Positions 698-28,393 of a DNA stretch of 37,596 nucleotides are shown here, in pieces. Source of the stretch: a virus (lineage: Duplodnaviria; Heunggongvirae; Uroviricota; Caudoviricetes). The notes beneath the pieces are model-generated. The model saw only the letters and a list, made by a program, of their open reading frames with translations, searched no databases and was not told the origin of the DNA. Position 1 is the first letter of the stretch; every line of letters starts with the position of its first letter. Made by a program: the position numbers and the translations under genes. The DNA lies in the IMG/VR virus record IMGVR_UViG_2558860170_000006; one strand, given 5' to 3'.

Positions 698-727
698 TTG
701 ACAGTTTTTGTTCTCCGGGGCTATATT
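698..727 (+). promoter_or_regulatory. candidate sigma70 promoter (TTGACA, ~18-bp spacer, TATATT)
   Basis: TTGACA at 698-703 and TATATT at 722-727 within an AT-rich intergenic region upstream of the rha-like gene. Confidence 0.3.
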
Positions 728-735
728 CCTCACAC

Positions 736-809
736 AACCGCAAAATCGGTTGTCGGGATTGGCGTCTCGGATAACATCACAACGCATAGCCGCGTTTGCG
801 GTTTTTTTT
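736..809 (+). ncRNA. candidate structured leader or small RNA with terminator-like 3' end
   Basis: 9-bp closing stem AACCGCAAA (736-744) / TTTGCGGTT (795-803) enclosing ~50 nt, followed by a T8 run (802-809); begins a few nt downstream of the candidate promoter. Confidence 0.3.
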
Positions 810-969
810 GCGTTAAGCATTGCCACATTCGCATTATGGTGGGGCGTGCAGGGGCGGAGAAATCCGCGCCGGGTTTTGTGATGACCGGTTACGCCAACCC
901 TGTACGTCTCACCACCTCCCTGATTGGCGTCAGAGGTGGTGATCATCCAATTAATTGGAGTCATCACAT

Positions 970-9748: not shown

Positions 9749-12700
9749 TCAGCTGATACTGATGCCTGCGGTGGCTTTCTTCATCACCACAACCAGCAAA
9801 TCGCTGATACTTGCTGTGGGATACCAGTTATTCACCAGCCATGCTGACACCGAAAACTCCAGCGTCATGTGGCCGCGACCAGCTGGCATATCAATAACAC
9901 CACTGTAAATCAGCGTATTATCCAGCGCGGTACGGTTATAAATTTCAGCACCGTTTTTCCGTACTATCAGGCGGCATGACGAATAAATATCGTTATTCTC
10001 CCGCTCATGTTTAGCGCCGCTGAATGCCACCGCCGGAATAACAATTTGCCTGTCAAAAGGCTGATCGTCATAAATCCTGACGGTAATGGTCCCTGATGGC
10101 CACCGCTCCGGTGCCCGGGAGTCCCGCGGAAAAGCCTTACCCACTGTTTTGACTATATCGCCTTCAATCTGGTTGGCTGACAGTTTCCCCTTAATCTGAC
10201 AGTTCTCATTAATTGTGACATTGTTGAGCGTCCCGGCGTTCGCATTCACACTGCCACTGATATCTGCATTTTTAGCGGTCAGTTTTCCGTCCGGTGTCAG
10301 GGAAAATGCCGGAGGATTACCGCCGCTGGTAATGGTGGGAGCCGTCAGGCGTTTCAGGAACACGTCGTTCATGAATATCTGATCGCCCTGACCAACAAAC
10401 ATCGGCTTTGTGTTGCCATTCGCAGGATTAATCATCGCAATCCTGTCTGCCGCCAGCAGCACCTGACTCTGCATTCCTGCTGGCGTATTCTCAATACCGG
10501 CACCGATACCCGCAATATAAAGGCGTCCGTCCTTCATCTGTTGCAGCTTCACAGCCCACATGCTGTTCAGATTATTATTTGTATCAACCTGAACCTTCTG
10601 TATCTGCTGGATTGCCGCACTCTGGTCTTTCAGTTTCTTATTGACAGTCTGCGTGATTTCATTGCTGACATCCGTAATGGACGTCCTGATTTCAGCCAGG
10701 TCAGGCGCAAGCTGACCGTTATCAATCTGCGTCCACAGCTCCTGAGCCAGATGTGTTTTCCCTATCTCTCCTTTGAAAAAATCCAAGTAACCTTCCGCAT
10801 CATCGCTCGCCCGACCGACAGCCTCCACGAATGCCGATTTGCCAACGGTGTTCACACTGCGAACGTAAAAATAATAATCATGGCCCGGTTTGATATTGAT
10901 ACTGGCGGCTATCCAGTACAGCGCCGTGCCAAGATAGCGGGCGCTGGTTTCAACCTGCCTGATATCCGCAATCCGCTTTTCCGAGAACCAGAACTCAAAC
11001 TGTACCGTCGGGTCATAAACGGCAAGATGCGGCGTTGCGGTTATCTGAAAATAGCCCGGCGTCAGCTCAATCCGCGACGGTGCTGCCGGTGCGGCAATCC
11101 GGAAGGTGGTGGTGGCAGGTTCACCCTGCTGGCCATAGCTGTTTATCGCCCGCACCGTCAGGGTGTATTCCCCGAGCGGCAGGCCGCTGAAACGGTGCTC
11201 CGTGTCTGCGGTGATGGCGGTGGTCACCAGTCTGGCATCCGTTCCCTTACCACTGGTCAGGCGCAGACTGAAGCGCACACCCTTCACCACCCGCGGCGTG
11301 TCCCATTTCGCCTGCGCCAGATACTGGCCGTCAGGTGCTGCACTGCCGGTGGGATGACGCTGTTCAGGGAACCTGACTGCGGCTCAAAGCGGGCACCGTT
11401 ATCCACGATGGCTTCTTTTTCCAGTACGTGCTGCACCGCCGTGATGGCAAAGGTGCCGTCCGTGTTTTCCCGGACGGAGACACAGCGGAACAGGAGACGG
11501 CGCAGTGACGGCAGGGAGAGTCCCCACACCCCGTATGTCTCCACACCATCAGGCAGGGTACTGACCTGTATCCGGTCCGGCGCGGGGTGTTCGGTGATGT
11601 CCACACTCACCGGCTTACCGCTGCCGTTAATCAGGTTCACCGTGGCGGCACCGGTCTCCGGAAGTGTCACTTCACGGTCCAGCGTCAGAGTGCGGGTGGC
11701 AGCATCAATGGACAGGACACGTCCGCCGGTCAGGGTCCCGGCATAGTCGTTATCACAGATTTCAATGATGTCACCGGGTGTGTGCCGCAGCCCCTGAGAC
11801 CCGAGCGTGAAATCCACCGTCTGCGTTTCCAGCAGTTCGGTCTTTATCACCCACAGTCCGGCACGGTGGGCCTGACCGCGGCTGGTACAGCCGAACGCGT
11901 CCATCTTCAGCAGGTTGCGTCCGTAGCGCAGTATGGCTTCCGGGTCTTCCACCAGTTCCGTGGAGGTCTGCCAGCCGTTCTGCGGGTCGGTATAATTCAC
12001 CTCCACCGCCGTGTGCCGGTCCTTCAGGGCACTGAAGCTGTAGCGGAAACCCACGCCGTTATCATCCACCACCACATCGCTGTTGGTGTACGGCCACACC
12101 ACATCCGACGGGCGGTCCTGAACAAACGTCAGCGTCTGGCCGTTCCATACCGGCATACAGCGCATCGCCGAGCAGAAATCACTGAGCACGTCCCATGCCT
12201 TACGCTGTTGTGCCAGGTACGCATTGAAGGTCATCCGCGGCTCGGTCTCCCCGAAACTATCCGGGACCGTCTGGTCGCAGTACTGCCCGATGGCATACAG
12301 CGCCCACTTGTCCACATCCGCCGCCCCCAGACGTTTTCCCATGCCGTAGCGCGGGTGAGTCAGCATGTCCCACAGACACCAGGCCGGATTGTTGCTGTAT
12401 GCCGGTTTCAGGCTACCGTCCCAGATACCACTGTACGTGCGTTTTTCCGGGTCATAGTTTGACGGCACCTGGATGATGCGACCGCGGATATGGTAGTTCA
12501 CCGTCATCTGCTGGCCGCCGAACTGCTCCGCATCCACCTGCAGCCCCACAATGGCCGTGTTCGGGTAGCACTGTTTCACATCGATGATTTCGGTGTATGA
12601 CGACCACAGCGTCTTATTCTGCAGCTGGTCCGTGGTGCTGTCCGCTGTCTCCCGGACCATCCGGATGTTAAAAGGACGGGGAGGCAGATTATCCAGAATC

Positions 12701-13200
12701 ACCGACGCCAGAAACTGCGAGGTGGTCTTGCCGTTAATGGTGACATCCTTTTCTGTCACCCAGTTACCGTTACGCTGTAACTGAATCAGCAGGCGGACGG
12801 ATGTCGGGTTTCGGTCACCCTTTGACGTGGTCTGCACCAGTGACTGCACCCCGAAGGTAACCCGCAGGCGGTCAATGTTCGCGGACGTAATGGTGCGCGT
12901 CACCGGTTTTGCCTTCGTCACTTCCACGCCCAGTCCGGTTTCAGCACCGGAGGACTCAAAGCCTTCCGGTGGTGTCTGCTCCTGCTCCCCGGCGCGTCAG
13001 ACCGCCGTCACACCGTGTATCACGGGATTACCGTCCGTGTCCGTCAGCGGGGTTTTGTTCACCAGGATACTCTGCAGTCCCTTCACCGGACCTTCTATCA
13101 GTCCCTCACCAATCGCATCAATCACGCTCATCATCTGCGTGGATTTGAGATTATCCTTCGCCTCACGAGGCGTGTGTGCCTTACCGCCACCTTTTCCCAT
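9749..13200 (-). pseudogene. J: tail tip host-specificity protein J, disrupted
   Basis: Collinear with lambda J across three track ORFs; in-frame TGA at 12997-12999 (…GVTAV*RAGEQEQTPPEGFE…) and a frameshift near 11290-11330 (…PPAVQHLTA / [13 protein letters not shown]…). Confidence 0.85.
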
Positions 13201-13306
13201 ACAGCCTTCCCCTGAATAAATTAACCGCCACTTGCCATTCCGTACAGAAGTCGGATATCCTTCGCCCGAAAAGCATGAAACACATTTCTGCCATGCTAAA
13301 GAGAAA

Positions 13307-13338
13307 CCCCGGTATCAGCAGATACCGGGGTTTTCTTT
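13307..13338. terminator. bidirectional hairpin in the I-J intergenic insert
   Basis: CCCCGGTATC-AGCA-GATACCGGGG perfect 10-bp stem with T-rich tracts on both strands. Confidence 0.45.
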
Positions 13339-13405
13339 CATGCCCACCGATAATCCTGTTGGTTAAAACCGGTAATGGCATAAAAATTCTGAATATCTTC
13401 ACATT

Positions 13406-13433
13406 TTCACAAACTGACTGTGGCGCGTATAAT
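13406..13433 (+). promoter_or_regulatory. candidate sigma70 promoter (TTCACA, 16 bp, TATAAT), antisense to the tail operon
   Basis: -35 TTCACA at 13406-13411 and perfect -10 TATAAT at 13428-13433. Confidence 0.4.
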
Positions 13434-13498
13434 TTCTCTGCGTTAATTTTTTTGTCGTGATATAAGAATAATTCCTTACACTTAATCTTCGTAACTCT

Positions 13499-13545
13499 CC
13501 CGCAGTTCCTGTCCGCGATCACTGCGGGATTTTTTTATTCTTTTT
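13499..13545 (+). terminator. rho-independent terminator (plus strand)
   Basis: CCCGCAGT…ACTGCGGG hairpin followed by ATTTTTTTATTCTTTTT. Confidence 0.45.
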
Positions 13546-14224
13546 ACCCCTGCCGCCCGATAACCACGACCTTTCCGCCCCCGCCTTCATCACGGGTGCT
13601 GATGTCCTGGGATATACGGCGGGAGCCAACCAGCATTTCCCCGTAAGGCACCGGCATCGGGTTCCCCTGGGCAATCATGTTATCCAGTGAGGAAAAGTAC
13701 GTGTTCTGTCTGCCGTTATCCGTTGCGCGGTAATCCGGTGTTTTTGCCTTCGGGGCCAGCATCTGGGCCACACCGCCCAGAATCATGCTGGCTCCAAGTG
13801 AAAACAGCATCGTGGTGGCAGAAAAACCACCGGCTGCCAGGGCTGAACCCCATAACGCCATTGATGCCCCGGCAGTGAAGAAAGAGCCCACGATGGCTGC
13901 CGCCCCCAGCACAATCTGCAGTCCACCCTTTCCGGCCCCGGCCAGTCGCGGCACAATGTGGATGACCGTTCCCTCACCCAGCTGTTCGTGAAGACGGGCG
14001 TACACCGCCTCCGGTGCCGTGTCATAACCGGCAATACGTATCTGGTACCAGCCTTCGTTCATCTGACGGCGAAAGCCCGGCATCTGCATCGACAGGGCGC
14101 GAATGGCTTCCGCTGCCGTGTTCACATACAGGCTGAGGCGGCGGCCAAATCGTTGTAAATCCCCGTGAAGGCAGATGCGTGCCAGTGGCGGTGACGCCAG
14201 ACTGAATGCGTTCGTCGTTGCCAT
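13544..14224 (-). CDS. I: tail assembly protein I
   Basis: 226-aa ORF collinear with lambda I (…ARICLHGDLQRFGRR…GASMILGGVAQMLAPKAKTP…). Confidence 0.9.
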   Translation of the reverse strand: MATTNAFSLASPPLARICLHGDLQRFGRRLSLYVNTAAEAIRALSMQMPGFRRQMNEGWYQIRIAGYDTAPEAVYARLHEQLGEGTVIHIVPRLAGAGKGGLQIVLGAAAIVGSFFTAGASMALWGSALAAGGFSATTMLFSLGASMILGGVAQMLAPKAKTPDYRATDNGRQNTYFSSLDNMIAQGNPMPVPYGEMLVGSRRISQDISTRDEGGGGKVVVIGRQG

Positions 14225-27390: not shown

Positions 27391-27395
27391 GCCCA

Positions 27396-27697
27396 CAAGA
27401 AAACCCCTCCGGAGAGGGGCTAAAGCCGCGTATCTGTATCATCATGCACATGGTGCCGGGTGCCTCCCGGTGAGTTCAGCCCGGTGCCACTAAACCCGCG
27501 TCATTCTCGTTTTGATAATCAGAGATTATACCGTCACCAGTCGCCCCTCCGCTCAGGGGGATTCACCATGCGAAATTTTTTTAACAAATGCCCAGTCTGA
27601 CAGGCAACTGTCAACTTACTGAATTGTGAGCAACATAGCATTTAACGGGGAACCTGTTTTCTGCAGTAAAAAGGCCCACCGGAGCGGATGGGCCTGG
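27396..27697 (-). repeat. non-coding module U1 (paralogue of U2); candidate small transcription unit
   Basis: Bounded by minus-strand terminators (GGCCCATCCGCTCCGGTGGGCC+T5 at 27668-27694; CCCCTCTCCGGAGGGG+TTTTCTT at 27396-27419); shares conserved blocks with U2; internal TATAAT on the minus strand. Confidence 0.5.
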
Positions 27698-27886
27698 AAG
27701 GATAGCGGTCATGTGATGCCGGTTTCCCGGTAACTCAGCACCGGTATCTGAGTCAACGTTTTCTCTACTGGGTCATTTCCGATACGCCCTGCCTGCTGAC
27801 AGGCTTTCATCACATCTGAAAATATAGCACCCTGACTGATACTGTAGTACCTAAGGTTCCAGAAACTGTGATGTATCCGGCACAGA

Positions 27887-28129
27887 AAAGCCCCTCCGGA
27901 GAGGGCTGGAGAGTGGCGCTATGTGCCATTGCATGATGCCGGGTGCCTCCCGGTGAATTCAGTACCAGCACCTGAATCCGCGATTATCCCATATACCTAC
28001 TCGCTGATTGCCCCTCCGCACAGGGGGATTCACCATGCCAGTTTCTTTTAACAAACTCCCCGCAAAACAGACAACTGTCAACCGTCTGAATTGTGAGACA
28101 TTTAAAAAAAAGGCCCGCAAAAGCGAGCC
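27887..28129 (-). repeat. non-coding module U2 (paralogue of U1), directly downstream of the tRNA cluster
   Basis: Minus-strand terminators at 28104-28129 (hairpin + T8) and 27887-27907; conserved blocks GCCGGGTGCCTCCCGGTGA, CAGGGGGATTCACCATG, CAACTGTCAAC, CTGAATTGTGAG. Confidence 0.5.
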
Positions 28130-28143
28130 AGGGAAAATAAGTG

Positions 28144-28220
28144 TGGCGCGTTGTACTGGATTCGAACCAGTGACCGATTGCTTAGAAGGCAATTGCTCTG
28201 TCCGGCTGAGCTAACAACGC
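28144..28220 (-). tRNA. argO: tRNA-Arg (anticodon TCT)
   Basis: GCGTTGTTAGCTCAGCCGGACAGAGCAATTGCCTTCTAAGCAATCGGTCACTGGTTCGAATCCAGTACAACGCGCCA; 7-bp acceptor stem, encoded CCA. Confidence 0.85.
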
Positions 28221-28233
28221 ATGATGCAGATAA

Positions 28234-28310
28234 TGGACCGCCATCGGGGACTTGAACCCCGCGCAGCCAGCTTCGAAGGCTGGCGCTCTTTCCTGATGAG
28301 CTAATGGCGG
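28234..28310 (-). tRNA. argN: tRNA-Arg (anticodon TCG)
   Basis: CCGCCATTAGCTCATCAGG…CCAGCCTTCGAAGCTGG…GGGGTTCAAGTCCCCGATGGCGGTCCA; cloverleaf-compatible. Confidence 0.8.
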
Positions 28311-28317
28311 TATGTGA

Positions 28318-28393
28318 TGGTGGCCCTTGCTGGATTTGAACCAGCGACCTGGCGATTATGAGTCGCTCGCTCTCACCACTGAGCTAAAGGGCC
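28318..28393 (-). tRNA. ileZ: tRNA with CAT anticodon, Ile2 (lysidine) type
   Basis: GGCCCTTTAGCTCAGTGGTGAGAGCGAGCGACTCATAATCGCCAGGTCGCTGGTTCAAATCCAGCAAGGGCCACCA; resembles E. coli tRNA-Ile2 as I recall it. Confidence 0.8.

What the first reader, a model, noticed from the sequence alone, without database searches (positions are those of the whole stretch)
13201..13543. A ~340-bp non-coding insert between I and J with its own promoter and terminators
In lambda, I and J are adjacent. Here they are separated by a block containing a bidirectional perfect hairpin (13307-13338), a strong plus-strand promoter (TTCACA, 16 bp, TATAAT at 13406-13433) and a plus-strand rho-independent terminator (13499-13545). 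That predicts a ~100-nt antisense-oriented transcript with no ORF, possibly a moron-type small RNA or a transcriptional insulator inside the tail operon.
Basis: partly seen in the sequence, partly recalled or inferred. Interest (0 to 1): 0.5.

Follow-up and report, generated by a model that had tools for sequence, protein, structure and literature searches.

The report
PasB-type prophage small RNA gene

Summary
I (13544-14224, minus) and J (start 13200, minus) are 343 bp apart, against 60 bp in lambda. The gap holds a perfect 13-bp hairpin (13304-13333), an 11/12 sigma-70 promoter (13406-13433, plus) and a 9-bp hairpin with a T7 terminator (13498-13536, plus).

The promoter-to-terminator unit is an allele of a known prophage sRNA. 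The published Northern probe for PasB of EPEC E2348/69 (83 nt, Hfq-dependent) is antisense to this terminator hairpin, with 20/23 contiguous bases matching here. PasB sits in the same I-J gap, antisense to the tail genes. The EcOnc22/23/24 probe of EHEC Sakai (about 85 nt, destabilised without Hfq) maps to the same unit in Sp11, Sp14 and Sp15.

The window allele shares 65 of 90 aligned columns with each, so it is a third allele. It is near-identical in about 630 complete E. coli genomes, including CFT073. No Rfam family covers it.

Things seen here and not found in the papers read:
- The equivalence of PasB and EcOnc22-24.
- An invariant CRP-like TCTGA-N6-TCACA site upstream of the promoter.
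- A terminator on the tail-gene strand just before J in every version of the spacer.

Targets of this allele are unknown. Interest is modest.

The parts
13440..13536 (+). PasB-family small RNA gene. The transcription start is predicted at about 13440 from the -10 hexamer. By homology to the mapped 5' end of E2348/69 PasB the mature 5' end would be about 13453, giving about 84 nt.
   Evidence: Promoter and terminator. Alignment to the PasB locus and to the Sakai EcOnc24 locus. The reverse complement of the PasB probe matches 20/23 contiguous bases at 13511-13530. No ORF. No Rfam family.
13406..13433 (+). Sigma-70 promoter, TTCACA (-35), 16-nt spacer, TATAAT (-10).
   Evidence: 11/12 matches. 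Only two such sites occur in the window, against 0.35 expected. The -10 is kept as TATAAT, AATAAT, CATAAT or TATCAT in homologues, whereas the -35 region is hypervariable.
13388..13403 (+). Invariant inverted repeat TCTGA-N6-TCACA, which resembles a CRP site (9 of 10 core positions of TGTGA-N6-TCACA). It is centred at 13395.5, about -44.5 from the predicted start.
   Evidence: Two matches in the window against 0.08 expected. Both half-sites are identical in all 122 intact copies recovered, which carry five different 6-nt spacers, at a nearly fixed distance to the -10 (1-nt insertion in one of 52 unique sequences). The function is inferred and was not tested.
13468..13491 (+). Most conserved single-stranded core of the sRNA (AAUAAUUCCUUACACUUAAUCUUC), the candidate seed. 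UCCUU is complementary to a Shine-Dalgarno AAGGA.
   Evidence: Alignment of homologues found by BLAST. The core is unpaired in most minimum-energy folds. Zhu et al. 2026 place the PasB seed just upstream of the terminator.
13498..13536 (+). Rho-independent terminator of the sRNA and probable Hfq-binding 3' module: 9-bp stem, 14-nt loop, U7.
   Evidence: The 3' arm plus a run of at least six T (CTGCGGGATTTTTT) is identical in every homologue found by BLAST.
13204..13378 (.). J-proximal module ('module A'), one of several alternative cassettes found between the sRNA promoter and J.
   Evidence: At least 99% identical in 1442 of 1451 E. coli records that carry it. It is replaced by unrelated 84-100-bp cassettes in Sakai Sp11/14/15 and in E2348/69.
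13304..13333 (.). Perfect 13-bp hairpin that looks like a bidirectional intrinsic terminator. On the tail-gene (minus) strand it is followed by UUUCUCUUU, about 100 nt upstream of the J start codon.
   Evidence: A GC-rich hairpin plus U-tract on the tail-gene strand is present in every cassette type, with one compensatory change (GCACCC/GGGUGC against GCAUCC/GGAUGC).
13544..14224 (-). Tail assembly gene I (flank).
12997..13200 (-). 5' end of tail-tip gene J (flank). In this window it is interrupted by TGA at codon 68.

Best explanation
The I-J spacer carries an autonomous, antisense-oriented small-RNA gene of the PasB / EcOnc22-24 family, inserted as a moron into the tail operon of a lambdoid prophage.

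Shown from the sequence: a near-consensus sigma-70 promoter (13406-13433) faces away from J. It would drive a plus-strand RNA of about 84-97 nt with no ORF, ending at a 9-bp hairpin plus U7 (13498-13536) just short of the I stop codon.

Shown for homologues elsewhere: the RNA accumulates in lysogens as an 83-85-nt species, is bound by Hfq, is much less abundant in an hfq deletion mutant (destabilised in Sakai), and forms Hfq-dependent chimeras with many mRNAs, almost always as the second RNA of the chimera.

Inferred for this allele: it is made in the lysogen independently of late transcription. It binds Hfq through the terminator and U-tail. It pairs through the conserved unpaired core (UCCUUA...UUAAUCUUC, anti-Shine-Dalgarno-like) with host and prophage mRNAs to alter their translation or stability. 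Because this allele differs from PasB and EcOnc22 in about a quarter of its positions, including around the core, its target set may differ.

Also inferred: the separate hairpin at 13304-13333 acts as a terminator on the tail-gene strand, and here on the plus strand too. It would stop non-antiterminated transcription through the sRNA locus from running into J, while Q-modified late transcription reads through.
For: Location: PasB is annotated at NC_011601.1 1466343..1466261. That lies between the tail assembly gene (ends 1466255) and gpJ (starts 1466496), on the opposite strand.

Probes: the PasB probe AATCCCGCAGTGATCGCGGAGCT is the exact reverse complement of the E2348/69 terminator hairpin and matches the window at 20/23 contiguous bases. 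The EcOnc22/23/24 probe matches 23 contiguous bases of the plus-strand unit in Sakai Sp11 and Sp15.

Coordinates: the Hfq-CRAC peaks of EcOnc22/23/24 fall on that unit once the roughly +140 offset between old and new Sakai coordinates is applied. The offset was calibrated on AgvB1.

Expression of homologues: EcOnc22 is about 85 nt and destabilised in the hfq deletion. pasB shows log2 fold changes of -6.8 and -2.4 in the hfq-deletion versus wild-type table, 37 interactions, and a rank of 15 among interacting RNAs.

Sequence relationship: the alignments show a shared promoter, core and terminator. The window allele is identical to each homologue at 65 of 90 aligned columns.

Promoter and terminator statistics. 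Spread: 1726 of 5426 complete E. coli genomes match the 451-bp query spanning the spacer and its flanks, and 1847 match the sRNA unit alone. In every locus inspected it lies next to the tail assembly gene, with J on the other side in all but two rearranged loci.
Against: Its sequence differs from the two experimentally studied alleles at about 28% of aligned columns.

The 5' end predicted from the -10 (about 13440) and the 5' end implied by the published sizes of 83-85 nt (about 13453) disagree by about 13 nt.

No target has been validated for any family member. A 2021 review lists the EcOnc22 target as unknown.

The stem arms of the sRNA terminator barely vary, so covariation cannot support the structure.

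The Sakai Sp12 copy, which is nearly identical to PasB, was not listed as an Hfq peak by Tree et al..
Confidence: 0.85

Rival explanations
1. The block is mainly a cis-acting device for the tail operon. The sRNA would act as an antisense RNA against the I-J junction of the late mRNA, directing processing or attenuating J. Alternatively the hairpins would serve only as transcriptional insulators, with no targets elsewhere.
For: The RNA is perfectly complementary to the late transcript. A terminator on the tail-gene strand directly upstream of J is present in every cassette type, including unrelated ones. The spacer position is strictly conserved next to I, and next to J in intact loci.
Against: The sRNA does not overlap the I coding sequence. 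It ends about 240 nt away from the J ribosome-binding site here, so it cannot mask it. PasB forms Hfq-dependent chimeras with 37 partner RNAs, and the Pas sRNAs as a group are reported to contact core and accessory genome transcripts. PasB and EcOnc22 are expressed in uninduced lysogens, where late mRNA is scarce. The two roles are not mutually exclusive.
Confidence: 0.1
2. The spacer encodes a small protein on the tail-gene strand: the 113-aa ORF at 13181-13522, or its 66-aa internal version, which is annotated as 'hypothetical protein' in phage ASU11.
For: The ORF is open across the whole spacer. One phage record annotates the 66-aa version.
Against: There is no Pfam match. The ORF runs through the terminator hairpin and overlaps the J start in another frame. 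The region it covers is replaced by unrelated 84-100-bp cassettes in related prophages, and homologues differ by 1-, 2- and 8-nt indels. RefSeq annotates nothing there in thousands of genomes.
Confidence: 0.02
3. The promoter-like and terminator-like sites occur by chance in junk spacer left by recombination, and nothing functional is made.
For: Consensus scans do give false positives. The weaker plus-strand site at 13232-13261 (9/12) is at chance level.
Against: Only 0.35 sites at 11/12 or better are expected per window, and this one is correctly placed about 65 nt upstream of a perfect terminator. The homologous unit is detected as RNA in two pathotypes. The architecture is kept across 52 distinct sequence versions.
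Confidence: 0.03

Closest known systems
PasB (pathogenicity-associated sRNA B) of EPEC O127:H6 E2348/69, prophage PP6 (Pearl Mizrahi et al. 2021, PMC8550237; distribution study by Zhu, Shabalina and Storz 2026, bioRxiv 10.64898/2026.05.13.724894)
   Same: It occupies the same site between tail assembly gene I and J and has the same antisense orientation. The promoter -10 is the same, as are the TCTGA-N6-TCACA site, the conserved core and the terminator 3' arm with its U-tail. The last 25 nt are identical. It is described as embedded in an operon of phage structural genes and as often the only Pas sRNA in non-EPEC, non-EHEC strains.
   Different: Only 65 of 90 aligned columns are identical. The 5' third and the segment between the core and the terminator are different sequence, and the terminator loop is 3 nt longer here. 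E2348/69 has a short (about 85 nt) J-proximal cassette in place of the 175-bp module A. Expression, Hfq dependence and partners have been shown only for the E2348/69 allele.
EcOnc22 / EcOnc23 / EcOnc24 of EHEC O157:H7 Sakai, prophages Sp15, Sp14 and Sp11 (Tree et al. 2014, PMC4104026)
   Same: Same I-J gap, strand and architecture. They are bound by Hfq in CRAC, run at about 85 nt on a Northern blot, and are destabilised in the hfq deletion.
   Different: This is another allele, also 65/90 identical to the window. It has a weak -35 (TTCCGG) and an AATAAT -10. The spacer is 240 bp, with a hairpin that terminates only on the tail-gene strand. The papers read here do not equate EcOnc22-24 with PasB. 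That link rests.
Prophage 'anti-sRNAs' AgvB and AsxR, and HnrS (EcOnc10-12)
   Same: They are short Hfq-binding sRNAs carried as morons in lambdoid prophages. They are multi-copy in EHEC and have allelic variation in the pairing region with a conserved terminator.
   Different: They lie elsewhere in the prophage: downstream of PR' for AgvB and AsxR, and near the lysis and nuclease genes for HnrS. Their sequences are unrelated. The Rfam models for AgvB, AsxR and Esr41 give no hit at this locus.
Morons of lambdoid phages (Juhala et al. 2000), cited through PMC4104026
   Same: Extra DNA lies between two genes that are almost adjacent in lambda. It carries its own promoter and terminator and is expressed from the prophage.
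   Different: The cargo is a non-coding RNA in antisense orientation, not a protein gene co-oriented with the operon.

Membership tests
PasB / EcOnc22-24 prophage sRNA family | Located in the spacer between tail assembly gene I and tail-tip gene J of a lambdoid prophage, on the strand opposite the tail genes | tested here: met
   Window: I at 13544-14224(-), J start at 13200(-), unit on the plus strand. The same arrangement holds in E2348/69 and Sakai Sp11/14/15.
PasB / EcOnc22-24 prophage sRNA family | Sequence homology to the experimentally defined RNAs | tested here: met
   65 of 90 aligned columns are identical to PasB and to EcOnc24. The 3' 25 nt are identical to PasB. The reverse complement of the PasB probe matches 20/23 contiguous bases. 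The flanking promoter region is nearly identical to that of the PasB locus.
PasB / EcOnc22-24 prophage sRNA family | Own promoter, and an intrinsic terminator with a U-tract of at least 4 | tested here: met
PasB / EcOnc22-24 prophage sRNA family | Non-coding | tested here: met
   There is no AUG in 13440-13536. Homologues differ by indels of 1, 2, 3, 6 and 8 nt.
PasB / EcOnc22-24 prophage sRNA family | Accumulates as an RNA of about 83-85 nt in the lysogen | not testable with these tools
   Shown only for the E2348/69 and Sakai alleles.
PasB / EcOnc22-24 prophage sRNA family | Hfq binding and Hfq-dependent stability, with base pairing to other RNAs | not testable with these tools
   Shown for homologues by CRAC, RIL-seq and hfq-deletion Northern blots. 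For the window allele only the 3' hairpin-plus-U7 module is visible.
Rfam-curated prophage sRNAs (AgvB RF02702, AsxR RF02703, Esr41 RF02676, STnc100, IsrK and others) | Score at or above the family gathering threshold | tested here: not met
   No gathering-level hit falls in 13201-13543. The best permissive hits are far below threshold, at most 19.6 bits against thresholds of at least 39.
Moron (autonomous insert in a phage operon) | Extra DNA between genes that are adjacent in related phages, with its own promoter and terminator | tested here: met
   The gap is 343 bp here against 60 bp in lambda. Promoter and terminator.
CRP-activated promoter (class I or II) | Match to the TGTGA-N6-TCACA consensus | tested here: met
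   TCTGA-ATATCT-TCACA at 13388-13403, 9 of 10 core positions, with AAT and TTT flanks. The half-sites are invariant across five spacer variants.
CRP-activated promoter (class I or II) | Site centred at -41.5 (class II), or at -61.5, -71.5 and so on (class I), from the transcription start | tested here: inconclusive
   The centre at 13395.5 is about -44.5 from the predicted start at 13440 and about -57.5 from the homology-mapped 5' end at 13453. Neither is canonical, and the true start is not known.

The most novel reading that the evidence does not exclude
This ExPEC-type allele would be a functionally distinct member of a hypervariable PasB family. Its transcription would be set by cAMP-CRP, or a similar dimeric regulator, through the invariant TCTGA-N6-TCACA site. 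That would tie a prophage sRNA to the host's carbon status. The universally present terminator on the tail-gene strand behind its promoter would make J expression strictly dependent on Q antitermination and keep antisense transcripts off the sRNA. The sRNA body, and not its flanks, would be the part under diversifying selection, so different E. coli lineages would carry PasB alleles with different target sets.
Probability: 0.3. Interest if true: 0.45.

Novelty: new member of a known kind. Interest (0 to 1): 0.28.

Why it matters
The window's near-identical allele is present in about 630 of the 5426 complete E. coli genomes searched, among them the widely used strains CFT073, S88 and ATCC 25922. 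No feature is annotated in the spacer in the RefSeq records searched.

Recognising the unit as a PasB / EcOnc22-24 allele does three things. It joins two literatures that named the same locus separately. It extends a 'pathogenicity-associated' sRNA to extraintestinal and commensal lineages. It supplies testable regulatory features, namely the conserved CRP-like site and the conserved terminator before J.

It does not reveal a new kind of element.

Tried and rejected
- **Rfam.** The gathering-threshold scan of the window and the permissive scan of 13100-13700 gave nothing at the locus.
- **AgvB and AsxR.** I suspected these first. They lie downstream of PR', not in the tail region.
- **EcOnc10.** I guessed it lay next to ECs2236, but it lies near the terminase and lysis genes and is HnrS.
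- **svsR of NC101.** It sits at the 3' end of cI, so it is not this element.
- **Sakai coordinates.** Taken at face value, the Table S2 coordinates put EcOnc24 on the J-proximal hairpin. That was an artefact of the roughly +140 shift between the old and new Sakai records. The AgvB1 calibration and the probe sequences resolved it.
- **Covariation.** It could not support the sRNA terminator because the stem arms barely vary. RNAalifold recovers only part of that stem.
- **LexA box.** Reading CTG-N10-CAT at 13389-13404 as a LexA box was dropped. It matches 13/20 positions and lacks the conserved CAG. The CRP-like reading fits the invariant positions better.
- **Small ORFs.** The ORFs in the spacer have no Pfam match and are not conserved.
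- **Tail-strand promoter.** I looked for one inside the spacer that would use the module A terminator and found nothing at 9/12 or better.
- **Zhu et al. supplement.** The one file held as text contains no variant sequences, so I could not tell whether this allele is among their 1,158 PasB hits.
- **RIL-seq partners of PasB.** I could not extract the list from the stored supplement within the look-up cap.
- **One genome per species.** That scan returned only 5 loci, four of them in implausible taxa, so it gave no view beyond Escherichia.

Full report
**What is in the sequence**

All tail genes in this part of the window are on the minus strand. The ORF at 13544-14224 is tail assembly protein I (Pfam Lambda_tail_I, E 6e-17). 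The ORF starting at 13200 (MGKGGGKAHTPREAKDNLK...) is the N-terminus of the tail-tip protein J. The 343 bp between them (13201-13543) compare with 60 bp between I and J in lambda.

- A perfect 13-bp inverted repeat at 13304-13316 / 13321-13333.
- TTCACA-16-TATAAT at 13406-13433 on the plus strand, 11 of 12 matches.
- A perfect 9-bp stem at 13498-13506 / 13521-13529, followed by seven T.

In the whole 37.6-kb window only two promoter-like sites reach 11/12. These are this one and one immediately upstream of the Rfam-recognised sRNA isrK. First-order Markov random sequences give 0.35 such sites on average.

**What it is**

Rfam has no family for the region, either at gathering thresholds or permissively. 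BLAST shows the 451 bases around the spacer in 1726 of 5426 complete E. coli genomes, at 100% identity in CFT073, S88, ATCC 25922 and many others. It lies next to the tail assembly gene in every locus inspected, and between that gene and J in all but two rearranged loci.

The literature gives the identity in two independent ways.

*EcOnc22/23/24.* Tree et al. 2014 (PMC4104026) list three homologous Hfq-CRAC peaks, EcOnc22, EcOnc23 and EcOnc24. They lie in Sakai prophages Sp15, Sp14 and Sp11, on the plus strand. The Northern size is about 85 nt and the RNA is destabilised in the hfq deletion. In the current Sakai record those coordinates fall in the I-J gap of each prophage.

The table uses the older Sakai record. 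Calibrating on AgvB1, located with its Rfam model, gives an offset of +137 to +146. That moves the peaks onto the promoter-to-terminator unit next to the I stop codon.

The published Northern probe for EcOnc22/23/24 confirms this independently of coordinates. Its reverse complement matches 23 contiguous bases (GTTAATCTTCATCGTTCTCTCCC) of the plus-strand unit in Sp11 and Sp15.

*PasB.* Pearl Mizrahi et al. 2021 (PMC8550237, Table S6) define PasB of EPEC E2348/69 as NC_011601.1, minus strand, 1466343..1466261, 83 nt, with probe AATCCCGCAGTGATCGCGGAGCT. In that genome the tail assembly gene ends at 1466255 and gpJ starts at 1466496, both on the plus strand. PasB therefore occupies the same place and orientation.

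The reverse complement of the probe is the terminator hairpin. It is exact in E2348/69 and Sakai Sp12, and matches 20 of 23 contiguous bases in the window.

PasB is strongly reduced in the hfq deletion (log2 fold changes -6.8 and -2.4). It has 37 recorded interactions and is almost always the second RNA in chimeras. It is higher in overnight LB than in DMEM.

Zhu, Shabalina and Storz 2026 found 1,158 PasB hits. [quoted passage not shown]

The candidates I considered and excluded are AgvB and AsxR (downstream of PR'), HnrS = EcOnc10-12 (late region near the nuclease and lysis genes) and svsR (3' end of cI).

**How this copy relates to the known ones**

The window RNA (13453-13537) is identical at 65 of 90 aligned columns to PasB and at 65 of 90 to EcOnc24. 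It is a third allele.

Across 12 BLAST-derived versions and 52 pattern-derived versions, the following parts are shared:
- the -10 hexamer;
- the first transcribed bases (CTGCGTTA);
- a central core (AAnAAyTCCnTAnnnTnAATCTTy);
- the terminator 3' arm with its T-run.

The 5' third, the stretch before the terminator and the terminator loop occur as several unrelated versions.

The core is unpaired in most minimum-energy folds. It contains UCCUU, the complement of a Shine-Dalgarno AAGGA. This agrees with the seed position proposed by Zhu et al..

The window's exact allele, at 99% identity or better over 166 nt, is in 633 records. I could not establish whether Zhu et al. counted this allele as PasB. 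Neither PasB paper mentions EcOnc22-24, so that equivalence rests on the analysis here.

The 5' end is uncertain. The -10 predicts about 13440, giving about 97 nt. The published sizes of 83-85 nt correspond to about 13453.

**Things not in the papers read**

*A conserved CRP-like site.* Just upstream of the promoter lies TCTGA-ATATCT-TCACA (13388-13403), which is 9 of 10 core positions of the CRP consensus. The pattern occurs twice in the window against 0.08 expected.

Loci were recovered by a pattern anchored only on the sRNA core and terminator, so the recovery did not depend on this site. All 122 intact copies have both half-sites unchanged, with five different 6-nt spacers. Between this site and the -10, the sequence, including the window's -35, exists in at least five unrelated versions of nearly constant length (one of 52 unique sequences has a 1-nt insertion).

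This is the pattern expected of a binding site for a dimeric regulator, and it fits the higher PasB level in LB. However, the centre is about -44.5 from the predicted start, which is not a canonical CRP position. I treat it as a lead only.

*A conserved terminator before J.* The J-proximal 175 bp (13204-13378) are at least 99% identical in 1442 of 1451 carrier records. In Sp11/14/15, E2348/69 and others they are replaced by unrelated 84-100-bp cassettes.

Every cassette type nevertheless has, on the tail-gene strand, a GC-rich hairpin followed by a U-tract just upstream of J. Two types differ by a compensatory change, GCACCC/GGGUGC against GCAUCC/GGAUGC. In the window the hairpin is a terminator on both strands.

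The simplest reading is an insulator. Transcription that is not Q-antiterminated stops before J, and in this cassette antisense transcription from J stops before the sRNA promoter. That is inference.

**Rivals**

- **Purely cis-antisense or insulator role.** The sRNA cannot mask the J ribosome-binding site, which is about 240 nt away. Its homologue pairs with many other RNAs. A cis role could still coexist with the trans role.
- **Small protein.** The 113-aa ORF, or the 66-aa version annotated once in phage ASU11, has no family match. It is not conserved and runs through the terminator.
- **Chance.** This is excluded by the statistics and by detection of the homologous RNAs.

**Verdict**

The element belongs to a described family, PasB / EcOnc22-24, so it is not a new kind of thing. 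This copy is a divergent and common allele that is unannotated in the RefSeq records searched, and whose expression and targets have not been shown.

Interest is modest. The most novel defensible reading is CRP-type control of an allelically diversifying sRNA, coupled to a conserved terminator before J. It is untested.

Noticed in passing
window 9749-13200 (minus strand): The J gene of this prophage is a pseudogene. Codon 68 is TGA (12997-12999) where CFT073 has TGG. A 22-nt deletion relative to CFT073 J, near nucleotide 1874, shifts the frame. J therefore reads as three ORFs of 67, 547 and 513 aa.
   Followed up: partly
window 13388-13403 (+): TCTGA-N6-TCACA resembles a CRP site and is invariant in all 122 intact homologous loci, while its spacer and the adjacent -35 region vary. 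Its centre is about -44.5 from the predicted start, which is not a canonical CRP position.
   Followed up: partly
window 698-727 (+), 734-808 (+), 832-919 (+): The only other promoter-like site at 11/12 or better in the window (TTGACA-18-TATATT) sits directly upstream of the Rfam hits isrK (734-808) and C4 antisense RNA (832-919).
   Followed up: no
window 27391-27600 (-), 27878-28067 (-), 28147-28393 (-), 33300-33475 (-): There are two STnc100 copies, three tRNA genes and a sok antitoxin RNA. Zhu et al. report STnc100 and sok as common neighbours of PasA and PasD. I did not check whether PasA-like or PasD-like genes are also present.
   Followed up: no
window 13204-13378; L004 13393-13569; L005, L010: Module A is almost invariant (at least 99% in 1442 of 1451 records) even where the adjoining sRNA body is only about 75-85% identical, as in Sakai Sp12. 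Identity breaks down right after the -10 hexamer. This suggests either a recombination boundary there or faster evolution of the sRNA body.
   Followed up: partly
window 13232-13342 (+): A weak plus-strand promoter-like site (TTGCCA-18-TATCCT, 9/12, chance level) lies about 40 nt upstream of a small hairpin, an A-rich linker and the 13304-13333 terminator. This could make a second RNA of about 75 nt, but there is no evidence for or against one.
   Followed up: no
L001 (CFT073, NC_004431.1 1364140-1364484): RefSeq locus tags jump from C_RS06865 (I) to C_RS06875 (J). A feature tagged C_RS06870 in the spacer seems to have been annotated once and later withdrawn.
   Followed up: no
L019, L020, L022, L023: Contigs in assemblies labelled Saccharibacteria MAG, Parendozoicomonas haliclonae, Streptomyces flavalbus and Clostridiales MAG match the pattern built from this E. 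coli prophage sRNA. Only L022 was inspected, and it carries a window-type module A and the sRNA unit. For that contig at least, contamination or mis-binning is the likely cause.
   Followed up: no
L018 (NZ_CP148282.1), 1-316 and 401-501: In some strains a deletion removes the sRNA promoter, module A and J. It joins the sRNA body to a frameshifted sodC region. This promoterless remnant accounted for 14 of 137 pattern hits.
   Followed up: no
Sakai NC_002695.2 against Tree et al. 2014 Table S2: The published EcOnc coordinates are about 137-146 nt lower than in the current RefSeq record between 1.94 and 3.49 Mb. Used uncorrected, they place features in the wrong neighbouring element.
   Followed up: yes
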